NCBI GenBank assembly: GCA_041947025.1
Contig: JBHGBJ010000006.1
Coordinates: 5,995 to 69,994 of the forward strand
Reading direction: 5' to 3'
DNA from: Thermodesulfobacteriota bacterium
GTDB lineage: Bacteria; Desulfobacterota; BSN033; UBA1163
DNA: 64,000 nt
Shown here piece after piece: positions 17,249 to 38,489 of this stretch. The position numbers were made by a program, and so were the translations under genes. The notes below the pieces were generated by a model, which saw only the letters and a list, made by a program, of their open reading frames with translations, searched no databases and was not told the DNA's origin. The number at the start of each line of letters is the position of its first letter. Within the stretch, counting starts at the first letter, position 1.

Positions 17249-18514
17249 ATGAGTCTGAGAGGTCGTCTGAGAATCGAGCCATCGGTCATTGAGGAGATCA
17301 ACCGCTTTCTCCTCGACCCGGAGAATCCTGTCGTTAACGCACTCTTGCAAGTTGTCGCCAAGTATGGAACTCCGGAGGAGATCAATTCCCGGGCCCGGAA
17401 GGCACGGGATCTTACCAACCTGTTGGGAAGACTGCGAGAAATCGGGTCTCCTTATGTAAGAGATTTAGAGTGGATCGTGGCTGAGAGAGAGAGGAGATCT
17501 TTTGTCTCAATTTCTGATTTCCGAAAGAAGATTCTTGGAAAACGCATGGACGCGATCCCCTTCGATGAAGGGAAGGCCGTGACTCTGGAAATCAGCGCTC
17601 TTCAATACTTTCCATGGTTGATCGCGGAGGCCCATCATGCGATCGAGCACCAAGAAGTCATGCCGGCAAGATATATCCGAGTCCGTAAGATGAAGGAGCA
17701 AGAAAGAGATCAAGGAGATATTCTGGCTGTGGCCGCAGCCATGGAGATCATCGGTGCAACTTACGTGGAAACCTTGGATACCAAAGGAACAGACGGATCG
17801 AACGTCCATCTGGGCGGCCCGGAAACCATCACAGGATATTTCGGAGGAATCGGACAGCCGAATGAGCATGCCCTTCAATGGGTCGATGAATATCTTTACT
17901 ATTATACGCAATACGGAATACGGCAGGTTCTCAACATCAACCCGGGGACGGTGTTTCTGGGTTACCTTCTCCACAGATTAGGTATCGATATGGAGTTCAA
18001 GATTTCTGTCTTTATGGGAAATGATAATCCTTATTCGGTTTTATGGACATTGATTGCAGCCAAGCTCTTTTCGCGGGAAGATGGCTCCTCACCGCTGGTT
18101 GGGTTCAATCTGAGCAATTCCGTCGATGGCCAGACTCTGACTTTATCCGGCGAAATTCGCCGAAAGCTCGGATTCGAAGAGGAAGTCCGGATCGAACATC
18201 ACATCACCGAGACATGGAAAAGTATCGTGCGACAGCCCTATAACCGGCGAGGGGATCTATTCGAAGTGGCCTCCCGAATGCCCAACATCTCAGCCAAGCA
18301 CGAAGGGGGCGATCCAGAAATTGAGCAGACAAGGGAACATCCATCGGACATCTTGGACTATTTTCGGGATAAGGAGGAGATCTTATCTTCCGGAGATATG
18401 CCACACCTGGAAAAAAATTATATGGACAAACACGATGCGGTCAACCGAACCGCCAGGGCATTGACAGAAAGAGGTGTGTCTTTTGTAGCTGCCTGGAATT
18501 TACATAGCCGATAG
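17249..18514 (+). CDS. hypothetical protein (421 aa, no family recognised)
   Basis: Long uninterrupted ORF, soluble, no Cys motifs, no Rossmann/P-loop; sits between panB and a BKACE gene. Confidence 0.5.
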   Translation: MSLRGRLRIEPSVIEEINRFLLDPENPVVNALLQVVAKYGTPEEINSRARKARDLTNLLGRLREIGSPYVRDLEWIVAERERRSFVSISDFRKKILGKRMDAIPFDEGKAVTLEISALQYFPWLIAEAHHAIEHQEVMPARYIRVRKMKEQERDQGDILAVAAAMEIIGATYVETLDTKGTDGSNVHLGGPETITGYFGGIGQPNEHALQWVDEYLYYYTQYGIRQVLNINPGTVFLGYLLHRLGIDMEFKISVFMGNDNPYSVLWTLIAAKLFSREDGSSPLVGFNLSNSVDGQTLTLSGEIRRKLGFEEEVRIEHHITETWKSIVRQPYNRRGDLFEVASRMPNISAKHEGGDPEIEQTREHPSDILDYFRDKEEILSSGDMPHLEKNYMDKHDAVNRTARALTERGVSFVAAWNLHSR

Positions 18515-23755: not shown

Positions 23756-25612
23756 ATGGAGAAACATATTGCTTGGTTGGATGCAGAAGAAAAAGAATTA
23801 GAGAAACAAGTGTTAGGGGAATATTCGAGCGATCAAGTTCGAAAGCATCTTGAATATTTAACAACCCTGACTCGCCGTGCTGGAACAGAGGATGAACTGA
23901 AGGCGGCCAAATATATTAAGAACAAACTTGAAGAGTACGGGGTTGATGGGAGAATTCATGAAATCGATGCTTACATCAGTCTTCCCGGAGAAGCAGAGCT
24001 TGAGATTCTGTCCCCGGTTCAAAGATCGATTCCCTGCTTGCCACGTACTTTTATACCCTCAACCCCTCCGAACGGCATAGAGGCTGAGCTGATTTTGGTA
24101 CCGGGCAGCGGATCAAAGGAGAATGATCAAGGAATCGATTTAAGGGGTAAGATTGTTTTGGTCGAGCTGGGATACAGAGAAGGCCGGATCGATTCATTGC
24201 GTATAGCTGAGGAAAGAGGCGCGGCGGGTCAGATTCAGGTCACTGGAAAAGCGCTCCACATACATGAGGTGAAAGATACAACATTTTCTGGGCTTTCGAA
24301 TCAGGTTTATCCGGCTGAAAAATCCCGTCTCATCAACATCGGACAAATCCGTTATACATGGGGGAACCCTACCCCGGATACGATGGATAAAATCCCCAGT
24401 ATCCCTGTCATATCGATTTCGAATGAAGATGGAAGGGATCTCACAGATTTAACCAGGAAGGGTCCCGTCGTAGTGAGGTTAAAGGCTGATGTGTGGCGTG
24501 GTTATAAAAAGATACGACTTCCTATGGGCGATATTAAAGGGACTAAGAACCCCGAAAAATATATCCTTTTGGGAGGCCATTTTTGTAGCTGGTTTACCGG
24601 AGCGGTGGACAACGCCGCGGCAAGCTCTCTGATATTGGAAATGGCCAGAATCTTCTCTAAGAATCGGAAGCATCTTTCCAGGAGCATCAAGTTCGCTTGG
24701 TGGTCTGGGCACGAGCAAGGGACGTATGCAAGCTCAACCTGGTATTTGGACAATTTCTGGGAAGATATTCGGGACCATGCGGTGGCCTTTGTGGTGATGG
24801 ATGCCATTGGAAGACTGGGCTCATCGGGTTTTGAATCGAGAAACACTGAAGACGTAAGGAAATTTCACGAGAGAGTGATCAAAGAGGTTTTAGGAATAGA
24901 GGTGAAAAGCAATCGGGTTTCCAAGATCGGGGATCAGAGCTTTTGGGGGATGGGAATTCCATCCACGGCAGGAAACACAACTTTTACGGATGAGCAAAGT
25001 GCAGCCATGGGAGGGAATCCCCATTGGTACAGTCACACGATAGAAGACACCCTGGATAAAGTGGATATGCAACTCGTGTCCATTCCTTTTAAGATCAATG
25101 CTACTTCCGTCTTGAGACTCTGCAACAACCCGGTTTTACCTTTCGAATTTGTGACGATGGCAGAGATATTTGAGAAGAGATTGGATGATTTGCAAAAAGC
25201 TGGTGGATCATTCCTGGATTTGACTCCGTTGATAAATCAGACGGAGGAATTAGAAAAGAGGGCAAAGGCCTTGAATAAGGGAATCGCAAAGAATCTTTCA
25301 GCTTTTGTAAATAAGAGGACAGGTGGAAGAAGCAAAAGCAAGTTTGAAGAGATAAACGCATGTCTGATGGGACTTAGCCGAATTCTTATCCCCGCACTTT
25401 CCTCGAAAGCGGGAAAATATGGACAAGATCCCATTTTTAGCAGATACAAGCTGATTCCAACGCTTCAGCCAATGGAAGAGCTGAATTCGATGGACAGAGA
25501 GGGTGAAGAATGTAAGGCTTTAATGACCTCTCTGTTGAGGGAGCGTAACAAGTTGTCAGACGCTCTAAACTTGGCTAATCACATTCTGGATAGCACCTTG
25601 AGCAGAATATGA
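23756..25612 (+). CDS. M28-family peptidase with PA domain (transferrin-receptor-like aminopeptidase)
   Basis: 618 aa; N-terminal region + PA-like insert + M28 metal-ligand blocks (HxD...D...EE...H pattern: GGHFCSW..., ...WWSGHEQGTYASS...). Confidence 0.65.
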   Translation: MEKHIAWLDAEEKELEKQVLGEYSSDQVRKHLEYLTTLTRRAGTEDELKAAKYIKNKLEEYGVDGRIHEIDAYISLPGEAELEILSPVQRSIPCLPRTFIPSTPPNGIEAELILVPGSGSKENDQGIDLRGKIVLVELGYREGRIDSLRIAEERGAAGQIQVTGKALHIHEVKDTTFSGLSNQVYPAEKSRLINIGQIRYTWGNPTPDTMDKIPSIPVISISNEDGRDLTDLTRKGPVVVRLKADVWRGYKKIRLPMGDIKGTKNPEKYILLGGHFCSWFTGAVDNAAASSLILEMARIFSKNRKHLSRSIKFAWWSGHEQGTYASSTWYLDNFWEDIRDHAVAFVVMDAIGRLGSSGFESRNTEDVRKFHERVIKEVLGIEVKSNRVSKIGDQSFWGMGIPSTAGNTTFTDEQSAAMGGNPHWYSHTIEDTLDKVDMQLVSIPFKINATSVLRLCNNPVLPFEFVTMAEIFEKRLDDLQKAGGSFLDLTPLINQTEELEKRAKALNKGIAKNLSAFVNKRTGGRSKSKFEEINACLMGLSRILIPALSSKAGKYGQDPIFSRYKLIPTLQPMEELNSMDREGEECKALMTSLLRERNKLSDALNLANHILDSTLSRI

Positions 25613-25653
25613 AATATCGAAACGGTCCGGTCGAGAATCAAGGGGACGAAGCA

Positions 25654-27753
25654 TTACTTATTTTTTTCCGTCCTTTTCTCCGGCCCTTTGGGTTCCTTCG
25701 CTCTCTCTATTCTTTTCTCCACGGGTTGGTCTTCCACAGGGCTTTGAGTCTCTTTTTCAACCGATTGGCGTTCCTTAAACGTTTCAACCGGTTTCTCCTG
25801 GGATCTTGATTTTTCTGTCCCTCTTTCCTGAGGCTGGAATTCTCTCTGTTTCTCTATTCCCTTTTCAGTCGGTCTGGACTGTTGACGGGTCTCTATTCCT
25901 CTTTCAGGGGTTCTCAATTCCTTCGGTTTTTGTGTTCCCTTCTCGTTTTGAGTTCCCTTCTCGGGAGGTTTGGTCTCCCGAGTTCTTTCCACTGTTCTCT
26001 CTTGAGGCTGAGACACTTTCTCTTTCGTTTTCTCAGCGGGACTGGGTTCCTTAGGTTTCTCTACGACCTTCTCCGTCGGCTTGATTTCTCTATTTTTTTC
26101 GACTCGCTCCGGTTGACGAGACCTTTCAATTGTTCTTTCTGAGGGTTTAAATTGTTTGGTCGTCTCGCCCCTCTTTTCCAATTCCTTTGACACCTGAGAT
26201 TTCTCGATGGTCTTCCCCACGGGGCTTGATTTTTCAGCCTTTGTCTCCGGCCGTTTCATCTCTCCGGGTTTCTGTACTTCTTTCTGGATCGGGCTGCGCT
26301 CTCCGGCCTTTTCAAATTCTCTCTGGACGGGTTTGCCCTCTTTGACCTTCAACGTCATTTCTCTTGGCGGCGACTCGGGCTTGAGAACCGAGGCGTTTCT
26401 CTCCTTGACGAGGGGACGTTTCTCCTTTGTTTCTCTAACCCGTATCTCTTTGATGGGCTCAGGGGGTCTTTTTGCCGGCGGAACCTCCTTGACCACTGGC
26501 ATCCTCGTTGTCCTTTCCGGTCTTATATCCGGCCCTACAATACTTATTCTTTCCTTGCGAAATGGATTTTCCCTGACATGGACATCCACGTGCTTGCCAG
26601 TCACGAACGTGTCGTTGTGAACGACTGTCACCGAATTTTTCACATTGACGTTCTTATACACAATCTTATTCACCTGGATATTTGTAATATTGACGCTGGT
26701 TATGTTGACACTGTGCGGGCCATAGTGGCCGCGGCCGTAGTAAATCTCTCTCGGGGCGAGGGGGATCCAGGCAACATATGTCGGAGTCCGAACCCAAGCC
26801 ACAAATCCGGGGCCCCAAAAGACAGCCCCTCGGGAGGGTGGAACCCAGCACCATCCGATCGTGGCGACAAAGGCCCACCTCCCATAGTGATAAGGCACCC
26901 AACCCCAGGGCTCGTAAGAGACCCAGACATAATCGCCAGCCATCCATACCCATCTTCCCATTCGATAAGGGGCCCACCCGGCAGAGGCAACAACCTTCGG
27001 TGTCCATACATAACCGTATCCGCTCGTATAGACCCACTTCCCGTATTCATCAAAGTCGGCGGAGTAAGCACTGAGCTCTTCAGGCAGGTGACGAACGGGT
27101 GGTCTCCATGCGGCAAGTTTCCCGTCCCTCTCACGGTTCCATCTTTCCCATTGATCAGGAGGTCCGAGTGGAGAAAGCTCCGCATAAGCCTCCTCATCGA
27201 GAGAGAGTGCGTAACCTGACTTCACTGTTCTCATTCCTCTCTTGGCCTCCACATCGACTGAACCTTTGAGCACGGAGATCTGATTCAGGCCATCGTCGGA
27301 GAGATCCACCATGAATATGGAAGGATCATAGGCTCGTATCGAAGAGATGGAAGTATCGATTTGGAGGATACTGTCTGTCTGACCTCTAAAATTGGCGTAG
27401 AGATGCCCTTCGTTTAGATAGAACTGTAAGGAATCTTTATCGAGGGTGATGATTTCGAGAGCGGATTCTTCATCAAGCCTTAGGTATGTCCCGTCTCTTA
27501 ACTGAAGCTCGAGTTTTCCTTCCTGCGGGATCCAAATCCGGTCGCCTTCCCGAAGCGGCATGTTGATTGAGGCAGGAACCCAGTCTTCTGTATCCTCTGT
27601 CCTGATCTGAACATCTCCCGAAATAAGACTGACACGCAATTCTCCAAGATCTTGTGAGTAAGAATGGGCGGGGAGAAGAAAAAGAGCTGATATGATTATG
27701 AAGAGCTTAAAGGCTTTCATTTCTTGGTCCTCCTTATTCTGAGTTACTGTCAA
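25654..27753 (-). CDS. secreted FecR-domain protein with W/Y/G-rich repeat region and ~300-aa K/E/P/R-rich low-complexity C-terminal tail
   Basis: Signal peptide (MKAFKLFIIISALFLLPAHSYSQ), FecR-like beta-sandwich segment (LISGDVQIRTEDTEDW...REGDRIWIP...LRDGTYLRLDEESALEI), then GRW/WV repeats (YRMGRWVWMAGDYVW...YHYGRWAFV), then EK/PE repeats to the C-terminus; DNA 25654-26600 shows degenerate periodic repeats. Confidence 0.6.
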   Translation of the reverse strand: MTVTQNKEDQEMKAFKLFIIISALFLLPAHSYSQDLGELRVSLISGDVQIRTEDTEDWVPASINMPLREGDRIWIPQEGKLELQLRDGTYLRLDEESALEIITLDKDSLQFYLNEGHLYANFRGQTDSILQIDTSISSIRAYDPSIFMVDLSDDGLNQISVLKGSVDVEAKRGMRTVKSGYALSLDEEAYAELSPLGPPDQWERWNRERDGKLAAWRPPVRHLPEELSAYSADFDEYGKWVYTSGYGYVWTPKVVASAGWAPYRMGRWVWMAGDYVWVSYEPWGWVPYHYGRWAFVATIGWCWVPPSRGAVFWGPGFVAWVRTPTYVAWIPLAPREIYYGRGHYGPHSVNITSVNITNIQVNKIVYKNVNVKNSVTVVHNDTFVTGKHVDVHVRENPFRKERISIVGPDIRPERTTRMPVVKEVPPAKRPPEPIKEIRVRETKEKRPLVKERNASVLKPESPPREMTLKVKEGKPVQREFEKAGERSPIQKEVQKPGEMKRPETKAEKSSPVGKTIEKSQVSKELEKRGETTKQFKPSERTIERSRQPERVEKNREIKPTEKVVEKPKEPSPAEKTKEKVSQPQERTVERTRETKPPEKGTQNEKGTQKPKELRTPERGIETRQQSRPTEKGIEKQREFQPQERGTEKSRSQEKPVETFKERQSVEKETQSPVEDQPVEKRIERAKEPKGPEKRTEKNK

Positions 27754-28082
27754 TTCTTAGACGGAAAGCAAATTCTCTTTATTCATCCCAGAGGGACATC
27801 CATGGCTTTGAGAGCAAGAAATATGCCTGGAAGATTTGAATGGAGGCAATTCTGTAACCCTTCGAACCTCAATACCAAATTCGAGTTTTGCGGGAGCTTC
27901 AAGATTGGAATGAGTTCTTACTAATGACAAATTGTCGGGCTTCAGAACATTTTTCGTCTGCGGGAGCTTTGAAGATCAAGATGATACGGGGGCACGAACA
28001 AGCATGAACTCAGTTTGATACAAGAGGTAATCAGTGCAGATTCTTGCCCGAAAAGTTTATAGCCCAGCCACAATCATTCCCC

Positions 28083-28502
28083 TCAACTTGTTTCAGATTT
28101 CTTTTTGGTCTTGTTCTCCATAGGAAAATTGGCCGCCTCCCATTCTGGGAATCCTCCTTTGAGTGCAAAGACCCTGGGATAACCTTTTTCTATGAATTGG
28201 CGTGCCACCCAGGCACTTGTCTCTTCACTCGGTCAGGAGCAATAGAATACAAGGGTCTTGCTTTTCGGATATTGCTTCAACCATGATCCGATTTCCTCGG
28301 GGTTTTTCCAGGTAGCTCCCGGAATCTTTTTTTCGCTGGCGTTCCATTCGTCATCTATTCGTACATCGAGAATGATCACATTAGGATCGCCGAGCATGGT
28401 TTTGAGCTCCTCTTTACTGATTCTAGGTGACTCTTGGGAGAAGGCGACTGTCGAAAGGAGTTGCATCAGAATCAGAATCGATCCGAATATAACCGTTTTC
28501 AT
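28083..28502 (-). CDS. periplasmic single-domain rhodanese (sulfurtransferase) with in-frame TGA at the catalytic position; candidate selenoprotein (Sec at 28233-28235)
   Basis: ORF 28233..28550 ends ...KTLVFYCS-TGA, but translation continues in the same frame PSEETSAWVARQFIEKGYPRVFALKGGFPEWEAANFP..., the conserved rhodanese C-terminal half. The TGA sits exactly 17 residues before the conserved GY, as the catalytic Cys does in GlpE/PspE. Signal peptide MKTVIFGSILILMQLLSTVAFSQ; start ATG 28502 after AGGTGG. Confidence 0.5.
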
Positions 28503-28702: not shown

Positions 28703-29719
28703 TTACTGTGCTGCCGCACCCCGGGCACGCTGTACTCGCGCCGAGGTAAGCGGATGTGTGGAGACGTAGGCATAGGCCCCCATCTCCTTTTCATCTCTCT
28801 TTGCAAGCCTTTCCATGATCGAGGCAAAGGCATTCGGGGAGTAGCCTTTCTTCTTGAGGAGTCCGAAGGCATATTCATCGGCTGCGGTTTCGAACTCACG
28901 AGAATACTTGGTCTGGGCCAATAACACCGGAACGCTGGCAACAGCAACGCTCAGTGATGCAGCATCAGAGGTCACGGCGGCGACCACGGCCCCAACAACT
29001 GAATTCTGTAACACGCTCCTCATCATATGGCGAAGCTCCACATGCCCGATCTCATGGGCCAATATCGCCAGCACTTCTTCTGTGGTCTGTGCAGCTTTCA
29101 CCATATCATCTGTGATGATAATGATGCCGCCAGGAAGAGCAAGGGCGTTCGGGCCGAAAACCGGTCCTGAGCGGAATTCCAGGCGGTAATAATCCCTTAA
29201 TGGCAAATCGCTGCGAAGCCTGTCAAACCCGTCGATTATTGCTTTCTGCGTATCATAATCGAGCCTTGTTCGGCGAAACCATCCTCTTTCATCCAACCAG
29301 GTCAGGGCCTGTCTGCCCAAGGACTGTTCCGTCTCCATCGGGATACGGGCGGCAATCCGTTCTGCTGCGGCCGGCAGACCGAAGAAATAAGCGGCCAACA
29401 GGGTGCAAAAAATGATCACAACACAGACCAGTGCGATACCCCAGCGCTCCTCGAGCCAGGCCACCGGGCCTTCGGAGGGGCTTTCCTGGGGGAGCGAGTC
29501 CAGAAAAGCAGAGTCCGGGCACGCAAATTGTCCGCCATCTGGAAGAGCGATGAAACGGTCGGACGACCCAATTCTCGGAGAAACCTTGAGTCCCAAGGTT
29601 GAATAACGCTTGGAAATAGGACCGGAAGTGAGCATCGCTTCCTCGTCCCCGAGATCCATTCTCGCCGGCAGGTCGATCGGCTGCCGACCGTCGAAGTAAT
29701 GGCCATCAATGGTAATCAT
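28703..29719 (-). CDS. M48-family zinc metallopeptidase (HtpX-like)
   Basis: HEIGHVELRH (HExxH) + downstream Glu (EFETAADEYA); one TM segment; start overlaps upstream DUF898 gene by 4 bp. Confidence 0.75.
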   Translation of the reverse strand: MITIDGHYFDGRQPIDLPARMDLGDEEAMLTSGPISKRYSTLGLKVSPRIGSSDRFIALPDGGQFACPDSAFLDSLPQESPSEGPVAWLEERWGIALVCVVIIFCTLLAAYFFGLPAAAERIAARIPMETEQSLGRQALTWLDERGWFRRTRLDYDTQKAIIDGFDRLRSDLPLRDYYRLEFRSGPVFGPNALALPGGIIIITDDMVKAAQTTEEVLAILAHEIGHVELRHMMRSVLQNSVVGAVVAAVTSDAASLSVAVASVPVLLAQTKYSREFETAADEYAFGLLKKKGYSPNAFASIMERLAKRDEKEMGAYAYVSTHPLTSARVQRARGAAAQ

Positions 29720-30963
29720 AGTGAAAGATCCACGTCAAAAAAGTCTACAGTTTCAGCTCCGATAGCTGTAACCGCACTCCTTTCGCCTCCCTGGAATTCA
29801 CTGAGTTCTCCTTCCTGCAGTCCCCGAAGGTTTTCTGCGCGGTATCTCAGCGTCCGCATAACCGCCCAGGGAATCAACAACCCTAATGAGACGGCGATCC
29901 CGAGGGCATTGGTCACGTAGAGTTTCAGTAAATCTCTGCAGCGCATGGTGGATTCAAAGCGGAGGGGCCCAAGCTGTGTATGATTCCAGACAAGATTACC
30001 GCTCCGCGCCCGGTTATAAGCGAATGCCAGCACATATCCGGCATACATCGGAACAGCCATGAGATGGGTGTAGATCCCCCATTTCTTTGTAGAGCCAAAC
30101 AGGATTCCCGCGAGTATCCCTGAGGGAATCAGTAGTGCAAGCAAGATCAGGCCGGAGACAAAATAGATCCTGAAGAATTGTCCGCCGGTGGCAGAAAAAG
30201 CCCCTTTTTTGCCGCCATAGGATGTATGTTCAACAATAAATTTTTTAAGTCGCTTGATCCACCAGGGATAGGAGAAACCGATCACGGCGAAGGGAATGCC
30301 AAGCATAAAAGGCTTTTCCGGCCAGATGGACATCATTCCAATGACAACGGCAAGAATGATGCCCCAGGCATAAAACACTTTCACGACGTCCAGGTAGCCG
30401 CCATCAAAATGGAACGTCATGTTCCGAAAGGCCGAATAACGGGCGTTGAACGCCGCCGAGCGGACGATCACCCAGGGGGAGACGACTAATCCTGCGGCTA
30501 AAATGTAGGGCAACAAAGAAGTGATCAAATGGCTTGCCGTGTAGTAAGCCAGGAATCCAATCGCTGCGATCACACGGCCCTTGAGGATCGGGATCGGTTG
30601 CCCCAAGAACTGGAAAGGTGTGCCTGCCAAGGTTGTGTGAGAATACAAATAGCGTTTCTTGCGCACCTTGGCCCATGCCGAAAAGATGCCGAAGGTCAGA
30701 AGGGTGAGGCAGAGGTTCACGATCCAAATCCGAAAATACTCCCGTGCTGAACCGTGGAACTCGAGTCTCATGCTAAATGTTTTGTGAGCCTCGTTATCTT
30801 CGCCTTGGGGTTGAAGCTTTTTTTCTGAGATTGCATCAATAATGGCCTTATGCCTTTCAGGATATCTCTCTTTATCAACATTGGCGGCCATCCACTCAAG
30901 GTGAGCTATGGGCAAAGGGCGGAGGGATTTGATGTATTCTTCAATGGTTTCTTCGCTAATCAT
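29716..30963 (-). CDS. DUF898 (YjgN-like) polytopic membrane protein
   Basis: 415 aa, ~8 TM segments with YjgN/DUF898-like pattern; translationally coupled (ATGA overlap) to the M48 peptidase gene. Confidence 0.6.
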   Translation of the reverse strand: MISEETIEEYIKSLRPLPIAHLEWMAANVDKERYPERHKAIIDAISEKKLQPQGEDNEAHKTFSMRLEFHGSAREYFRIWIVNLCLTLLTFGIFSAWAKVRKKRYLYSHTTLAGTPFQFLGQPIPILKGRVIAAIGFLAYYTASHLITSLLPYILAAGLVVSPWVIVRSAAFNARYSAFRNMTFHFDGGYLDVVKVFYAWGIILAVVIGMMSIWPEKPFMLGIPFAVIGFSYPWWIKRLKKFIVEHTSYGGKKGAFSATGGQFFRIYFVSGLILLALLIPSGILAGILFGSTKKWGIYTHLMAVPMYAGYVLAFAYNRARSGNLVWNHTQLGPLRFESTMRCRDLLKLYVTNALGIAVSLGLLIPWAVMRTLRYRAENLRGLQEGELSEFQGGERSAVTAIGAETVDFFDVDLSL

Positions 30964-35264: not shown

Positions 35265-36191
35265 ATGGACGATGGGCTGCGAACGAAGCACATTCCGGTT
35301 TTAGTCGAAGAGGTGATGACCTTCTTAAGATGCGAACCGGGTCGTACCTATGTGGATGCGACATTAGGGGGAGGCGGCCATGCCTTCGAGATTTTGAGAC
35401 GGACCGCTCCCAGTGGAATTCTGATCGGATTGGATTGGGACGAAGAGGCCATCTCCGAGGCGAGAAAGGCATTAGCGCCCTTTGGTGAGCGGGCTAAAAT
35501 ATTCCGCGAAAATTTTGTTCTTCTCCCTGAATTACTGAGGGAGATAAAGAGAGAGCCGGTCGATGGAATACTGCTCGATTTAGGGCTCTCTTCCTTTCAG
35601 TTGGAAAGGGAGGAGAGGGGATTCAGCTTTCAACGAGAGGGCCCATTGGATATGAGGATGGATCAGCGGCTGGATCAAACAGCGAGCTACCTTGCCAACC
35701 GCCTTTCTGCGGATGAGTTGAAAGAGATTCTCCAGCGCTACGGGGAAGAGAGATGGGCGAAGCGGATTGCCAAGGCGATCGTTCAGGAGAGAGGGCAGGG
35801 TTCTATCGAGACGACCCAACAATTGAGAAGGATCGTCCGTCAGGCCGTCCCGAGAAGATTTCACCCCCGAAAGATTGATGTGGCGACGAAGACCTTTCAG
35901 GCCTTCCGTATCAGGGTCAATGACGAGTTGGAAAATCTCAGAGGGATACTGGAGACCGGGTGGAAATGCTTAAAAAAGGGGGGAAGGATGTGCATCATCT
36001 CTTTTCACTCCCTTGAGGATCGGATGGTTAAAGAAAACTTCCGGAAACTGGAAGGGCGAGGAGCCGATGGGTCGAGCCCGGAAGCCGTGATGCGCGTCCT
36101 CACGAAAAAGCCCATCGTCTCTTCTGAGGAGGAGCAAAGAAGAAACCCGAGATCCCGGAGCGCCAAATTGAGGTGCGCGGAGAGATTGTGA
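35265..36191 (+). CDS. rsmH: 16S rRNA (cytosine1402-N4)-methyltransferase
   Basis: 308 aa; HIPVLVEEV...YVDATLGGGGHA...LLDLGLSS...RMD... canonical RsmH/MraW blocks. Confidence 0.9.
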   Translation: MDDGLRTKHIPVLVEEVMTFLRCEPGRTYVDATLGGGGHAFEILRRTAPSGILIGLDWDEEAISEARKALAPFGERAKIFRENFVLLPELLREIKREPVDGILLDLGLSSFQLEREERGFSFQREGPLDMRMDQRLDQTASYLANRLSADELKEILQRYGEERWAKRIAKAIVQERGQGSIETTQQLRRIVRQAVPRRFHPRKIDVATKTFQAFRIRVNDELENLRGILETGWKCLKKGGRMCIISFHSLEDRMVKENFRKLEGRGADGSSPEAVMRVLTKKPIVSSEEEQRRNPRSRSAKLRCAERL

Positions 36192-36246: not shown

Positions 36247-36522
36247 ATGACCAGGAGTGTGAGTCGAATATCCATCTTTATCCTCTTTCTGCTTATTTTA
36301 GTCGGTGGGTCCTTGTTCTATGTTTGGTCGAGAATTCAGGTCATCCAGCTTGGATACGAGATATCGAATGCCCTGAAGGCGGAGCGGGCACTCGTTGAGG
36401 CGAATAAACGCTTGCGAGTGGAGATCGCCACACTCAAATCCTACACCCGGATCGAAAAATTTGCAGTGGAGGAACTGAGAATGGCCAAACCCAAACCTGA
36501 TCAGGTGATCGTGATCCGATGA
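36247..36522 (+). CDS. ftsL: cell division protein FtsL
   Basis: 91 aa, single N-terminal TM (ISIFILFLLILVGGSLFYVW) + coiled-coil; position between rsmH and ftsI; stop overlaps ftsI start (ATGA). Confidence 0.7.
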   Translation: MTRSVSRISIFILFLLILVGGSLFYVWSRIQVIQLGYEISNALKAERALVEANKRLRVEIATLKSYTRIEKFAVEELRMAKPKPDQVIVIR

Positions 36523-38489
36523 AGCGGCAATCTATCAATTGGTTCAAAGTCAGGATCATTTTCATCTCGACTCTCCTCCTCTTTTCCTTCGGATTGATCG
36601 TAGGAAGAATGTTTCAGCTTCAGGTGCTGAAAAAGGAGCAGCTCTATAAACTGGCTGCTCAGCAGCAGTTGGTTCAAATCCCGTTCGTCCCAAAGCGGGG
36701 GATCATTTACGATCGGAATGAGAATGAGCTGGCGGTCAGCATCGAGGTCGATTCCGTTTACGCAGATCCTCTTCGGGTGGTTGACGCGAACAGGACAGCC
36801 CGGGATCTTGCTCCCATCCTCCAGATCGATCGGGGGGAATTGCGACAGAGGTTGAAGAACCGTCGGTCCTTTGAATGGGTTCAAAGAAAGATTTCTTCGA
36901 ATGAGGCCGAGAAGATCAAGGCCCTTCAGCTTCCGGGGATCCATTTCCTGAAAGAGAACCGAAGGTTCTATCCCAATTCCCAATTGGCTGCCCAAATCAT
37001 TGGCTTCGTTGGCCTCGATTCCAAGGGGCTTGAGGGACTCGAATTCCAATATAATACCCTTCTCAACGGAATAAACCATGTGTGGACAATGGGGAGAGAT
37101 GCCCGGGGTCGGGAGATCCTGATGGGCGATCCTTTGCCCGAGCCGGAGGATCACCACAAGAATCTCTTCTTGACGGTGGACAAAAACATCCAACATGTGG
37201 CTGAGACAGAGCTCAGCAAAGCCGTTCAAAAATGGGGGGCCAAGGGAGGAATGGTGATCGCCATGGATCCCCGGACCGGAAAGATCCTGGCCATGGCCTC
37301 TTACCCTTTTTTCAATCCAAACCAGTTTATCCAATATCAGCCAAAGTTTTGGAGGAATCGAGCGATCTCCGACGTCTTTGAGCCGGGCTCCCTTTTTAAG
37401 GTCTTTCTTGCAGCGGCCGCTTTGGAGGAAAAATTGGTGCGGCCTTCCGATTCTTTCTTTTGCGAAAACGGAGCCTATACGGTTTATGATCGAACCATCC
37501 ACGATCACTCCAAACATGGCTGGCTTACCTTTCAGCAGATCCTGAAGGTTTCGAGCAATATCGGGGCGTCGAAGGTCGGCGAGAAGATGGGGAAAGAGCG
37601 TTTCTACAAGTATATTTGTGGATTCGGATTTGGAGAAAAAACACGGGTCGACCTTCCGGGAGAAGGCAAAGGGATCGTCCATCACCCGCGATACTGGCCT
37701 CCGGTTGCCCTCGACACAATTTCTTTTGGCCAGGGAATTTCCGTGACGGGAATCCAATTGGCGGTTGCCCTTTCGGCCATTGCCAATGGTGGATTCCTGA
37801 TGAGGCCTTACGTCGTGGAGAAGATTACGAATGAGAAAGGTGAAATCACTCAGGCCTTTCAACCGGAGGTGGTTAGAAGGGTGATCTCAGAGGAAACGGC
37901 CCAGAAGGTAACTGCAATGCTCAAGACAACGACAGAAAAAGGAGGGACCGGAGAACAGGCTGTCCCCGCCGGATTTGAGGTGGCAGGAAAGACAGGGACG
38001 GCCCAGAAGGTGGAACCACTCGGGGGTTACTCCGACCATCGGTTTAACAGCGGGTTCATGGGATTTGCTCCTGCCAATGACCCCAGGCTCGTTCTCCTTG
38101 TTGTGATTGACGAACCGCGAGGCGAGTCGTACGGAGGAACCGTGGCTGCTCCAGTATTCAAGGCCATTATGGAAAAGGTTCTCCCCTATCTCAATGCGAT
38201 TCCTAAAGGGACGCTGATCGTAAAGAAGGAACCCGATTCTGTCCCTCATTCGGAGACCTTGGAAGCTGAAACCTTGAGAGAGGAGATCAGGGTAGGGAAA
38301 GGGCCAGAAAGGATCGTCATGCCAGACCTCACCGGGTTGTCCATGCGTAATGCATTGAATCGCATCGAAGGAAGAGGATTGATTATCAAGGTATCGGGTA
38401 TGGGAAAGGTCGTGGAGCAGGCCCCCAAAGCAGGAACGGTGATTGAAAAGGGGGATATCTGTTATTTGAAGTTTCAGTCACCGTCGTAA
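36519..38489 (+). CDS. ftsI: peptidoglycan D,D-transpeptidase FtsI (PBP3), with C-terminal PASTA domain
   Basis: 656 aa; SxxK (SLFK), SxN, KTG(T) (KTGTAQ) motifs; C-terminal PASTA-like (RIVMPDLTGLSMRNALNRIEGRGL). Confidence 0.9.
   Translation: MKRQSINWFKVRIIFISTLLLFSFGLIVGRMFQLQVLKKEQLYKLAAQQQLVQIPFVPKRGIIYDRNENELAVSIEVDSVYADPLRVVDANRTARDLAPILQIDRGELRQRLKNRRSFEWVQRKISSNEAEKIKALQLPGIHFLKENRRFYPNSQLAAQIIGFVGLDSKGLEGLEFQYNTLLNGINHVWTMGRDARGREILMGDPLPEPEDHHKNLFLTVDKNIQHVAETELSKAVQKWGAKGGMVIAMDPRTGKILAMASYPFFNPNQFIQYQPKFWRNRAISDVFEPGSLFKVFLAAAALEEKLVRPSDSFFCENGAYTVYDRTIHDHSKHGWLTFQQILKVSSNIGASKVGEKMGKERFYKYICGFGFGEKTRVDLPGEGKGIVHHPRYWPPVALDTISFGQGISVTGIQLAVALSAIANGGFLMRPYVVEKITNEKGEITQAFQPEVVRRVISEETAQKVTAMLKTTTEKGGTGEQAVPAGFEVAGKTGTAQKVEPLGGYSDHRFNSGFMGFAPANDPRLVLLVVIDEPRGESYGGTVAAPVFKAIMEKVLPYLNAIPKGTLIVKKEPDSVPHSETLEAETLREEIRVGKGPERIVMPDLTGLSMRNALNRIEGRGLIIKVSGMGKVVEQAPKAGTVIEKGDICYLKFQSPS

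What the first reader, a model, noticed from the sequence alone, without database searches (positions are those of the whole stretch)
25654..27753. Secreted FecR-domain protein with GRW-type aromatic repeats and a ~300-residue K/E/P-rich tail, no partner sigma factor
FecR-like domains normally sit in anti-sigma factors next to an ECF sigma gene, and none is nearby. Here the domain follows a cleavable signal peptide. Next comes a W/Y/G-rich segment (YRMGRWVW, YHYGRWAF motifs). The C-terminus is a long, highly charged repeat region (EKxxE/PExK periodicity, reminiscent of the TonB periplasm-spanning rod) reaching the C-terminus. The underlying DNA (25654-26600) shows degenerate periodic repeats, which may be prone to expansion or contraction.
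Basis: partly seen in the sequence, partly recalled or inferred. Interest (0 to 1): 0.55.

Follow-up and report, generated by a model that had tools for sequence, protein, structure and literature searches.

The report
Exported FecR–DUF6600 protein, cationic tail
This is a real gene for an exported protein with a compact FecR-plus-aromatic-hairpin head and a long, disordered, positively charged tail; it belongs to a very large, already catalogued family of unknown function, is not an iron-signalling anti-sigma factor, and probably acts in the cell envelope.

Summary
The gene is 25654-27720 on the minus strand. Its true start is the ATG at 27720, giving 688 aa. The product has a signal peptide, a FecR domain (PF04773), DUF6600 (PF20245) and a 288-residue E/K/P/R tail.

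The "GRW repeats" are DUF6600, which holds at least three ~25-residue β-hairpin repeats. The tail is an array of about 16 degenerate 13-residue units (39-bp period in the DNA). It is predicted disordered and has a net charge of +21.

With a deep alignment, AlphaFold2 folds residues 24-410 as one compact unit (pLDDT 94). Only the FecR half resembles any solved structure.

The protein is not an oddity. The family has more than 14,000 clusters at 50% identity, in Desulfobacterota, Nitrospirota and Acidobacteriota. Members share this architecture and have no conserved neighbour and no partner sigma gene.

Tail sequences diverge freely. Tail presence, proline content and net positive charge are nearly universal.

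The features that define FecR-type anti-sigma factors and TonB are absent.

A conserved ECF-type promoter motif lies upstream in the window's clade. σ54-type promoters are enriched upstream elsewhere in the family.

My best guess, which is inferred, is a periplasmic envelope protein made under alternative sigma factors. Its head would bind a partner and its polycationic tail would tether to anionic envelope polymers.

The parts
25654..27720 (-). Coding sequence of the FecR-DUF6600 protein (688 aa plus stop). It starts at ATG 27720, not at the upstream TTG 27753.
   Evidence: ORF listing. An AAGGAGG site lies 8 nt before the ATG. The translation is 100% identical over its full length to the 688-aa NCBI protein P0001.
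27652..27720 (-). Signal peptide, aa 1-23 (MKAFKLFIIISALFLLPAHSYSQ), probably cleaved by signal peptidase I. There is no lipobox cysteine.
   Evidence: Read from the sequence. The n/h/c pattern is kept in the consensus of the homologues. No signal-peptide predictor was available.
27169..27639 (-). FecR-fold β-sandwich, aa 28-184. The Pfam FecR match covers aa 60-155 in 688-aa numbering.
27043..27153 (-). Two-helix connector between the FecR fold and DUF6600, aa 190-226.
   Evidence: AF2 secondary structure: helices at core residues 167-180 and 191-203.
26749..27057 (-). DUF6600, aa 222-324. It consists of at least three ~25-residue Trp/Tyr/Gly-rich β-hairpin repeats with the pattern [WxPYxx]G[RK]Wxx....xxWx[PS].
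   Evidence: Pfam PF20245, E=1.2e-28. Nine invariant Trp residues (plus P, G and V positions) across 136 homologues. Internal repeat by hhalign, E=3e-11. Paired strands in the AF2 model.
26491..26748 (-). C-terminal part of the folded head, aa 325-410. It is rich in V and N and ends in a conserved NPF...P segment.
   Evidence: AF2 pLDDT is 84-96. The stretch is conserved in family alignments A1 and A2.
26311..26490 (-). Proximal tail, aa 411-470. It is proline-rich and basic, and its sequence is still conserved within the clade (...KEIPxxKRPPEPIREI.VKE.KEKRPLV...).
   Evidence: Consensus of alignment A1. Mean net charge of the first 60 tail residues is about +7 in homologues.
25657..26310 (-). 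Array of about 16 degenerate 13-residue units (about P-x-E-[KR]-x-[IVT]-E-[KR]-x-[KR]-E-x-[KQ]), aa 471-688. It is predicted disordered and net positive. The DNA period is 39 bp.
   Evidence: Protein autocorrelation z=6.9 at lag 13. Layout in 13-mers, and the same period in 79 of 115 close homologues. DNA lag-39 z=7.3. The charge-hydropathy test places the whole tail (aa 401-688) in the disordered region, with a proline about every 8 residues.
25928..25963 (+). The only recent tandem duplication, 18 bp x 2, encoding EKGTQN-EKGTQK.
   Evidence: Tandem Repeats Finder.
27729..27735 (-). Ribosome-binding site AAGGAGG.
   Evidence: The GGAGG core is invariant in the alignment of seven upstream regions.
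27757..27785 (-). Candidate ECF-type (σE-like) promoter, TGAATAAAGAGAATTTGCTTTCCGTCTAA. GAAT would be the -35 element and CGTCTAA the -10 element.
   Evidence: Two invariant blocks sit in an otherwise unconserved intergenic region in 7 of 7 clade members. Within 339 kb scanned, the motif occurs upstream of this gene only, apart from one intragenic chance hit. Reading it as an ECF promoter is an inference from remembered consensus sequences.
27813..27828 (-). σ54-like -24/-12 motif, AGGCATATTTCTTGCT. This is a weaker candidate.
   Evidence: Scores 20 of 23 on a TGGCACG-N4-TTGCW weighting. Similar motifs are enriched family-wide. Among the seven clade members it is kept only in the window and L005.
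27889..27969 (-). Two exact 11-nt direct repeats, AAGCTCCCGCA on the gene strand, 70 nt apart. They could be a binding site for an enhancer-binding protein.
   Evidence: the repeat finder family D1. Coordinates confirmed. The functional reading is speculative.

Best explanation
**Shown.** The gene encodes a Sec-exported soluble protein with no membrane anchor and no lipobox. It belongs to the large uncharacterised FecR-DUF6600 family. The protein has two parts.
- A compact head of about 385 residues. A FecR-type β-sandwich is joined through two helices to an array of Trp/Tyr/Gly-rich β-hairpin repeats (DUF6600) and a further conserved β-rich segment.
- A proline-rich, net-positive tail of about 290 residues, predicted disordered. 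In this clade it is built from about 16 degenerate 13-residue E/K/P units.

The gene stands alone and has no sigma or anti-sigma partner.

**Inferred.** In this clade the gene is transcribed from an ECF-type (σE-like) promoter. In many other clades it is transcribed from σ54 promoters, some driven by an adjacent histidine kinase and NtrC-type activator. That would make it an inducible envelope protein rather than a housekeeping one.

**Proposed mechanism (inferred, not shown).** The folded head is the specific binding module, for a protein or glycan partner in the envelope. The FecR fold plays that role in FecR/PupR and in LapA-type retention modules. The tail carries about +0.09 charge per residue. 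Its contour length is about 90-100 nm and its expected coil size about 15 nm. It would act as a flexible electrostatic tether or spacer binding anionic envelope polymers such as phospholipid head groups, LPS phosphates or peptidoglycan. Tail length would be tuned by gain and loss of 13-residue units.
For: **Identity and architecture.** Pfam matches. 100% identity to the NCBI protein named as a DUF6600 protein. 2,010 homologues at E<1e-5, of which the best 120 all carry FecR plus DUF6600. 14,249 representatives at 50% clustering with E<1e-3, and 2,188 with E<1e-30, aligned over the whole head.

**Tail.**
- It is placed in the disordered region by charge-hydropathy, with well-mixed charges and a proline about every 8 residues.
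- It is present in most representatives, with a median length of 238 aa.
- Its net charge is positive in 100% of close and 99% of distant homologues, median +20 in both groups, although E+K content differs more than twofold between them.
- The 13-residue period is present in 79 of 115 close homologues.
- Close homologues differ by 13- and 26-residue indels.

**Standalone gene.** No conserved neighbour was found across 84 loci.

**Regulation.**
- The ECF-type motif is conserved in 7 of 7 clade members.
- No σ70-type promoter match was found in 25400-28300.
- TGGC-N8-TGC occurs upstream in 36 of 89 family genes against 5% of random regions (odds ratio 12, p=2e-21). Most sites cluster 45-110 nt before the start codon.
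- In L062, L070 and L071 the order is histidine kinase, σ54 activator, σ54 promoter, then the gene.
- In L086 and L087 a DegP/HtrA-type protease gene lies divergently next to the gene.
Against: - No experiment or publication exists for any family member. A full-text search for 'DUF6600' returned no papers.
- Periplasmic location rests on a signal peptide read by eye.
- The ligand of the head is unknown. I could not inspect model coordinates, so I do not know whether the conserved Trp residues are buried or exposed.
- The promoter assignments are motif-based. Geobacter orthologues show neither motif, and the closest relative, L001, lacks the σ54 motif.
- Counts of positive tail charge come from related sequences and are not independent observations.
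- A polycationic tail would equally suit an extracellular role.
Confidence: 0.4

Rival explanations
1. The protein is a detached periplasmic accessory of an ECF-sigma or cell-surface-signalling pathway encoded elsewhere. The FecR-fold head would bind a membrane anti-sigma factor or the signalling domain of a TonB-dependent transducer, acting in trans as RseB acts on RseA. The gene's own ECF-type promoter would close a feedback loop.
For: The FecR fold is closest to the periplasmic domains of a putative anti-sigma factor (4m0h) and of PupR. An ECF-type promoter motif is conserved upstream in the clade. Regulators of ECF systems are typically members of their own regulon (established knowledge).
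Against: There is no sigma, anti-sigma or TonB-dependent transducer gene in the window (and Pfam scans of the neighbours and of other large ORFs in the window). Only 2 of 84 homologous loci have an ECF sigma within 6 kb. The STN-like subdomain that contacts transducers in PupR is absent, since only about 140 residues align. Many clades use σ54 promoters instead. This idea does not explain the long cationic tail.
Confidence: 0.15
2. The protein leaves the cell and acts as an extracellular matrix or adhesion protein. The aromatic hairpin array would bind polysaccharide. The polycationic tail would stick to anionic surfaces such as exopolysaccharide, extracellular DNA, clays or metal oxides in soil and sediment.
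For: Aromatic β-hairpin repeats and basic low-complexity tails are common in surface and cell-wall-binding proteins (general knowledge). The family is concentrated in soil and sediment phyla. The tail charge is conserved.
Against: No secretion-system genes or sorting signals are associated with it. The C-termini are not conserved. There is no conserved neighbour. The head is compact, and the DUF6600 half has no significant match to a carbohydrate-binding module.
Confidence: 0.15
3. The tail has no specific function. It would be a tolerated low-complexity extension produced by repeat drift, and only the head matters.
For: Tail sequence, length (0-426 aa) and repeat period vary widely across the family. 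About 9% of representatives have tails shorter than 80 aa. The repeats are degenerate at the DNA level.
Against: A tail is nearly universal across three phyla. Proline content (13-15%) and positive charge density are kept while E/K content changes more than twofold. The sign of the net charge is positive in 99-100% of cases. Some of the short forms may be partial genes at contig ends.
Confidence: 0.1

Closest known systems
FecR / PupR anti-sigma regulators (periplasmic cell-surface-signalling domain; PDB 6ovk/6ovm, 4m0h)
   Different: There is no cytoplasmic anti-sigma domain, no transmembrane anchor and no STN-like C-terminal subdomain. No adjacent fecI-type sigma or TonB-dependent transducer gene is present. 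DUF6600 and a cationic tail follow the fold instead.
Retention/anchoring module of giant RTX adhesins (LapA, MpIBP region I; PDB 5ix9; NCBIfam NF033682)
   Different: The score is far below the family cutoff (19 against 50 bits). No type 1 secretion genes are nearby. The extension here is a disordered charged tail, not Ig-like repeats.
TonB (and TolA) periplasm-spanning spacers
   Same: A long Pro/Glu/Lys-rich, non-globular periplasmic segment, long enough to span the periplasm.
   Different: There is no N-terminal membrane anchor, there are no (Glu-Pro)n/(Lys-Pro)n dipeptide runs, and there is no C-terminal TonB domain. The tail ends the protein. The repeat unit is 13 residues.
ZraP/ZraSR and CpxP/CpxAR envelope-stress modules
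   Same: The regulatory logic in some acidobacterial paralogues is a histidine kinase plus an NtrC-type σ54 activator next to a σ54-driven gene for a small-regulon periplasmic protein.
   Different: There is no sequence or fold similarity to ZraP, CpxP or Spy. The window's own copy has no adjacent two-component system.
Lysostaphin N-terminal 13-residue tandem repeats (Pfam PF25533)
   Same: Tandem 13-residue charged repeats in an exported protein. Some homologues give sub-threshold hits (20-29 bits).
   Different: The hits are below the cutoff of 60 bits. The repeats here are C-terminal and not attached to a peptidase. The resemblance is probably one of composition.
Single-layer β-hairpin repeat proteins (MORN repeats, CPAP TCP10/G-box, OspA)
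   Different: There is no significant structural or sequence match, and the motif differs (WxPYxxG[RK]W against the MORN YxGxW).
Leptospira lipoprotein LipL45 (NCBIfam NF033165)
   Same: An exported FecR-domain protein that has no sigma partner.
   Different: 24 bits against a cutoff of 350. There is no lipobox, no DUF6600 and no cationic tail in common.

Membership tests
FecR-DUF6600 family (Pfam PF04773 + PF20245; the NCBI record names it 'DUF6600 domain-containing protein') | DUF6600 domain above the Pfam gathering score | tested here: met
   99.6 bits against a cutoff of 27, E=1.2e-28, covering 3-101 of 102 profile positions.
FecR-DUF6600 family (Pfam PF04773 + PF20245; the NCBI record names it 'DUF6600 domain-containing protein') | FecR domain N-terminal to DUF6600, above the gathering score | tested here: met
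FecR-DUF6600 family (Pfam PF04773 + PF20245; the NCBI record names it 'DUF6600 domain-containing protein') | End-to-end alignment of the ~385-residue head with other members, followed by a low-complexity Pro-rich basic tail | tested here: met
   Among 120 close homologues (64-82% identity) and 150 representatives (down to 34%), most align over the whole head, query residues about 1-387.
FecR-type anti-sigma factor (cell-surface signalling) | N-terminal cytoplasmic anti-sigma domain that binds the ECF sigma | tested here: not met
   Only 5 residues precede the hydrophobic signal segment, and the FecR fold starts at about aa 28. Pfam reports no other N-terminal domain.
FecR-type anti-sigma factor (cell-surface signalling) | Single-pass transmembrane anchor | tested here: inconclusive
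   The only hydrophobic segment is the N-terminal 23 residues, which look like a cleavable signal peptide (A-H-S / S-Y-S sites). No predictor or experiment was available.
FecR-type anti-sigma factor (cell-surface signalling) | C-terminal STN-like subdomain that contacts the transducer's signalling domain | tested here: not met
FecR-type anti-sigma factor (cell-surface signalling) | Adjacent ECF sigma gene (fecI type) | tested here: not met
Only 2 of 84 homologous loci have one within 6 kb.
FecR-type anti-sigma factor (cell-surface signalling) | Adjacent TonB-dependent transducer gene | tested here: not met
   Pfam on the flanking genes and on the large ORFs of the window finds none. None appears in the gene tables of related loci.
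TonB | N-terminal membrane anchor, and C-terminal TonB domain (PF03544) | tested here: not met
   Pfam gives no TonB_C hit. The charged tail runs to the last residue.
TonB | Proline-rich spacer made of X-Pro dipeptide runs | tested here: not met
   The tail is 12% proline, spaced about every 8 residues within 13-residue units. It does not contain (EP)n or (KP)n runs.
LapA-type retention module (NF033682) | Score above the NCBIfam cutoff | tested here: not met
LipL45 (NF033165) | Score above the NCBIfam cutoff, and a lipoprotein signal | tested here: not met
   24.4 bits against a cutoff of 350. There is no cysteine in the signal peptide.

The most novel reading that the evidence does not exclude
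The FecR-DUF6600 family could be an unrecognised, widespread class of periplasmic intrinsically disordered envelope proteins in Desulfobacterota, Nitrospirota and Acidobacteriota. In this reading they are induced by alternative sigma factors (ECF or σ54 with a two-component system). The folded head docks on an envelope partner. The polycationic tail physically couples or spaces envelope layers. In the boldest version the tail threads through an outer-membrane pore while the FecR-fold head stays behind as a periplasmic plug, as in LapA-type retention modules, and so displays a cationic polymer on the cell surface.
Probability: 0.15. Interest if true: 0.65.

Novelty: new member of a known kind. 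Interest (0 to 1): 0.35.

Why it matters
The gene itself is an ordinary member of a catalogued domain-of-unknown-function family, so the window holds no singular discovery.

The family is very large, with more than 14,000 clusters at 50% identity. It is conserved across three environmentally dominant phyla and has not been studied at all.

This analysis gives the family a testable outline:
- A confidently modelled head, half of which (DUF6600) has no solved structural relative.
- A disordered tail whose conserved property is positive charge density rather than sequence.
- Probable control by alternative sigma factors.

It also shows that database names such as "iron dicitrate transport regulator FecR", given to some Geobacter members, are misleading. 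If the envelope-tether idea holds, the family would add a new kind of periplasmic disordered protein to envelope biology in poorly studied diderm phyla.

Tried and rejected
- **Shallow-alignment model.** AlphaFold2 with 30 sequences of 65-82% identity gave pLDDT 55 and a DUF6600 region that looked unstructured. A 136-sequence alignment that included 50%-cluster representatives replaced it and gave pLDDT 94.
- **Conserved gene neighbours.** All-against-all clustering of ORFs from 84 loci produced only antisense shadow ORFs inside the gene itself, plus lineage-specific synteny: rsmG-parAB, MscL, DUF4197, HtrA and an EF-G paralogue. The operon-partner idea was rejected.
- **Partner sigma.** None was found.
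- **σ54 activator or rpoN in the window.** No GAFTGA motif or RpoN-box motif was found.
- **Rfam.** No RNA family matched in the window.
- **Tandem Repeats Finder on the tail DNA.** Only an 18-bp x2 repeat was reported. Autocorrelation was needed to reveal the 39-bp period.
- **Pfam Lysostaphin_N hits in homologues.** These were below threshold and were treated as compositional.
- **Literature.** 'DUF6600' gave no papers. Combinations of FecR, Geobacter, RpoN, proline-rich and envelope stress gave nothing relevant.
- **AFDB Foldseek library.** It was unavailable.
- **ECF-type motif as a σ70 promoter.** A TATAAT-like box lies about 20 nt downstream of CGTCTAA in several relatives. It is deleted in the window and does not explain why CGTCTAA is invariant.
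- **Coiled-coil or single-α-helix reading of the E/K tail.** Rejected because prolines occur about every 8 residues and the longest stretch free of Pro and Gly is 16 residues.
Full report
**1. What is there**

The ORF 25654-27753(-) is real. An AAGGAGG site lies 8 nt before the ATG at 27720. The 688-aa product from that ATG is identical over its whole length to an NCBI MAG protein named [quoted passage not shown] (P0001). I therefore take 25654-27720 as the gene.

Pfam gives two matches above threshold:
- FecR, PF04773: E=2.9e-10, 40.9 bits against a cutoff of 24.
- DUF6600, PF20245: E=1.2e-28, 99.6 bits against a cutoff of 27.

NCBIfam gives only far-sub-threshold hits to LipL45, the LapA retention module and FecR.

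The N-terminus, MKAFKLFIIISALFLLPAHSYSQ, has the layout of a cleavable Sec signal peptide and no lipobox. This was read by eye.

Composition by segment:

| Segment | Composition |
|---|---|
| DUF6600 region | W 11%, Y 11%, G 12% |
| Tail, aa 401-688 | E 19%, K 16%, P 12%, R 11% |

**2. The aromatic repeats**

Across 136 homologues of 33-82% identity, most invariant columns lie in this segment: nine Trp residues, plus P, G and V positions.

I cut the family alignment into units of about 25 residues and compared them profile against profile:
- SAGWAPYRMGRWVWMAGDYVWVSYE against PWGWVPYHYGRWAFVATIGWCWVPP: 97% probability, E=3e-11.
- The preceding unit against the first of these: 80% probability.

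The domain therefore contains at least three β-hairpin repeats.

**3. The tail**

Residue autocorrelation shows a 13-residue period, with z=6.9 at lag 13 and 5.1 at lag 26 against shuffles. Written out in 13-mers, the unit is roughly P-x-E-[KR]-x-[IVT]-E-[KR]-x-[KR]-E-x-[KQ], in about 16 copies. The DNA has the matching 39-bp period: 44.6% identity at lag 39 against 31% for codon shuffles, z=7.3.

The DNA repeats are old. The longest exact repeat is 12 nt, and Tandem Repeats Finder sees only an 18-bp x2 duplication at 25928-25963.

Physical properties of the tail:
- 34 prolines, with a median spacing of 8 residues.
- No stretch free of Pro and Gly longer than 16 residues.
- Charges mixed so evenly that no 5-residue window exceeds ±2.
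- A position well inside the disordered region of the charge-hydropathy plot.

It is not a coiled coil or a single long helix. Its contour length is about 90-100 nm and its expected coil size about 15 nm.

**4. The family**

Family size:
- A word-indexed search with the head finds 2,010 proteins at E<1e-5. The best 120 all carry FecR plus DUF6600 and are 64-82% identical over the head.
- An exhaustive HMMER scan of 50%-identity representatives finds 14,249 at E<1e-3 and 2,188 at E<1e-30. Most of the listed hits align over the whole head, down to about 34% identity.

The best 80 loci come from these groups:
- Desulfobacterota: Desulfocapsaceae, Desulfurivibrio, Geobacteraceae, Syntrophorhabdaceae.
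- Nitrospirota: Thermodesulfovibrionia.
- Acidobacteriota above all: Bryobacterales, Terriglobia.

Cultured Geobacter species have orthologues. Some are annotated "FecR family protein" or even "iron dicitrate transport regulator FecR".

**5. Is the tail noise?**

Sequence, length and repeat period vary freely.

| Group | Tail length | Composition | 13-residue period |
|---|---|---|---|
| Close homologues | 18-304 aa, median about 230 | E 19, K 18, P 14, R 12 % | 79 of 115 |
| Distant representatives | median 238 aa, up to 426 | E 7, K 7, P 13.5, R 12 % | lost |

Bulk properties are nevertheless kept. Net charge is positive in 100% of close and 99% of distant homologues, with a median of +20 in both groups and about +0.09 per residue. 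Proline is 13-15% and hydrophobic residues about 9%. These counts come from related sequences and are not independent.

About 9% of representatives have tails shorter than 80 aa, and some of those may be partial genes. There is no conserved C-terminal motif. Close homologues differ from the window protein by indels of 13, 13, 26 and 27 residues. Unit gain and loss has therefore occurred, but on evolutionary time scales.

**6. Structure**

A shallow alignment gave a poor model, with pLDDT 55. A 136-sequence alignment gave pLDDT 94.4 and pTM 0.92 for aa 24-410. The elements, in core numbering, are:
- A β-sandwich, residues 5-161.
- Two helices, residues 167-203.
- Paired β-strands through DUF6600.
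- A further ordered segment running to about aa 410.

The high pTM indicates a single compact head.

**7. Context**

In the window the gene is monocistronic and sits among unrelated genes:
- It converges with an M28 peptidase gene.
- It lies downstream of a rhodanese gene.
- The remaining neighbours are unrelated, for example an MFS transporter, a nucleoside hydrolase and an M48 peptidase gene.

The dcw cluster starts at about 35 kb.

It finds one in only 2 of 84 homologous loci.

Clustering all ORFs of those loci gave no conserved neighbour. The apparent top clusters were antisense shadow ORFs inside the gene. Lineage-specific synteny does exist:
- rsmG-parAB, MscL, DUF4197, DUF481, and a divergent HtrA-type protease in close relatives.
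- An EF-G paralogue and MscL in Geobacter.

**8.

*ECF-type motif.* Aligning the upstream regions of the window and six clade members shows two invariant blocks in otherwise unconserved DNA: TGAA(T/C)AA...A.AA and TT(T/C)CGTCTAA. They lie at window 27757-27785(-). The arrangement GAAT-N17-CGTC(TAA) fits the general ECF/σE promoter pattern (GAAC-N16-17-CGT; E. coli rpoE P2 -10 element TCTAA). That pattern is from my own knowledge, and the assignment is an inference.

In 339 kb of clade sequence the motif occurs only upstream of this gene, apart from one intragenic chance match. No σ70-type promoter match is found in 25400-28300.

*σ54-like motif.* Just upstream, at 27813-27828, lies AGGCATATTTCTTGCT. 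Two exact 11-nt direct repeats follow at 27889-27899 and 27959-27969. Within the clade this σ54-like motif is shared only with L005.

Family-wide, TGGC-N8-TGC occurs in the sense orientation upstream of 36 of 89 genes. It occurs in 7% of antisense controls and 5% of random controls (odds ratio 12, p=2e-21). Most positions cluster 45-110 nt before the start codon, and the sites span all three phyla.

In the acidobacterial loci L062, L070 and L071, a paralogue is preceded on the same strand by a histidine kinase, then an NtrC-type σ54 activator, then a high-scoring σ54 motif.

Geobacter orthologues show neither motif. Regulation therefore differs by clade, but it repeatedly involves alternative sigma factors.

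**9. Interpretation**

*Shown:* the protein is exported. It has a two-part β-rich head and a predicted-disordered polycationic tail. It belongs to a very large family of standalone genes. It lacks every defining feature of FecR-type anti-sigma factors other than the fold itself, and every defining feature of TonB.

*Inferred:* it is periplasmic, it is expressed from ECF or σ54 promoters, and it has an envelope role. In that role the head would be the specific binder, and the tail would be a flexible electrostatic tether or spacer for anionic envelope polymers.

*Rivals:*
- A trans-acting accessory of an ECF or cell-surface-signalling pathway.
- An extracellular adhesin or matrix protein.
- A functionless tail.

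*Boldest reading not excluded:* a plug-and-thread arrangement like LapA retention modules.

**10. Novelty**

The gene is a new member of a catalogued but uncharacterised family. No paper in the library mentions DUF6600. Interest is moderate to low for this locus and higher for the family as a whole.

Noticed in passing
window 28083-28502 (-), with an in-frame TGA at 28233-28235: The rhodanese gene just upstream appears to stop at ...LVFYCS-TGA, but the frame continues for 49 more codons (PSEETSAWVARQFIEKGYPRVFALKGGFPEWE...). With the TGA read through, Pfam Rhodanese covers the whole profile (2-102 of 102, E=8.5e-16). The truncated ORF covers only 2-69 (E=1.1e-7). The TGA sits two residues after the active-site-like Cys (C-S-U). 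A GUGCC-UGGGU-GGCAC hairpin starts 16 nt downstream. This is a possible selenocysteine rhodanese. Alternatives are a sequencing error or a pseudogene.
   Followed up: partly
L062 7937-13049; also L070, L071 (and L051, L075, L077, L085): Some acidobacterial paralogues form a cassette. The order is a multi-TM histidine kinase, an NtrC-type σ54 activator, a strong σ54 promoter motif (TGGCATGGCATTTGCT) and then the FecR-DUF6600 gene. This resembles ZraSR-ZraP or CpxAR-CpxP logic.
   Followed up: partly
L010, L023, L024, L062, L070, L071: Two FecR-DUF6600 paralogues lie within about 6 kb of each other in several genomes, so the family is locally duplicated.
   Followed up: no
window 28703-30963 (-); L036, L041, L043, L052: An M48 peptidase with an N-terminal DUF7092 overlaps a DUF898 membrane-protein gene by 4 nt in the window. 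A homologue of the M48 gene also lies within 6 kb of the FecR-DUF6600 gene in four acidobacterial loci. The association is weak and may be chance.
   Followed up: no
L003, L087, L088, L090, L091: An mscL gene lies 2-4 kb from the FecR-DUF6600 gene, both in the window's clade and in Geobacter. In L086 and L087 a DegP/HtrA-type protease gene is the divergent neighbour. This may be residual synteny or a loose envelope-related neighbourhood.
   Followed up: no
window 36519-38489 (+): The FtsI-type penicillin-binding protein of the dcw cluster (rsmH at 35265, then murE, murF and murD) carries a C-terminal PASTA domain (E=3.7e-10). That domain is more familiar from Gram-positive PBPs and kinases.
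   Followed up: no
window 17249-18514 (+): A 421-aa ORF has no Pfam match at E<=1e-5.
   Followed up: no
L005, L086, L087, about 20 nt downstream of the CGTCTAA motif: A perfect TATAAT box (TAAAAT in L001) follows the ECF-type motif in several relatives and may be a second, σ70-type promoter. This stretch is deleted in the window, which shortens its 5' leader to about 30 nt.
   Followed up: partly
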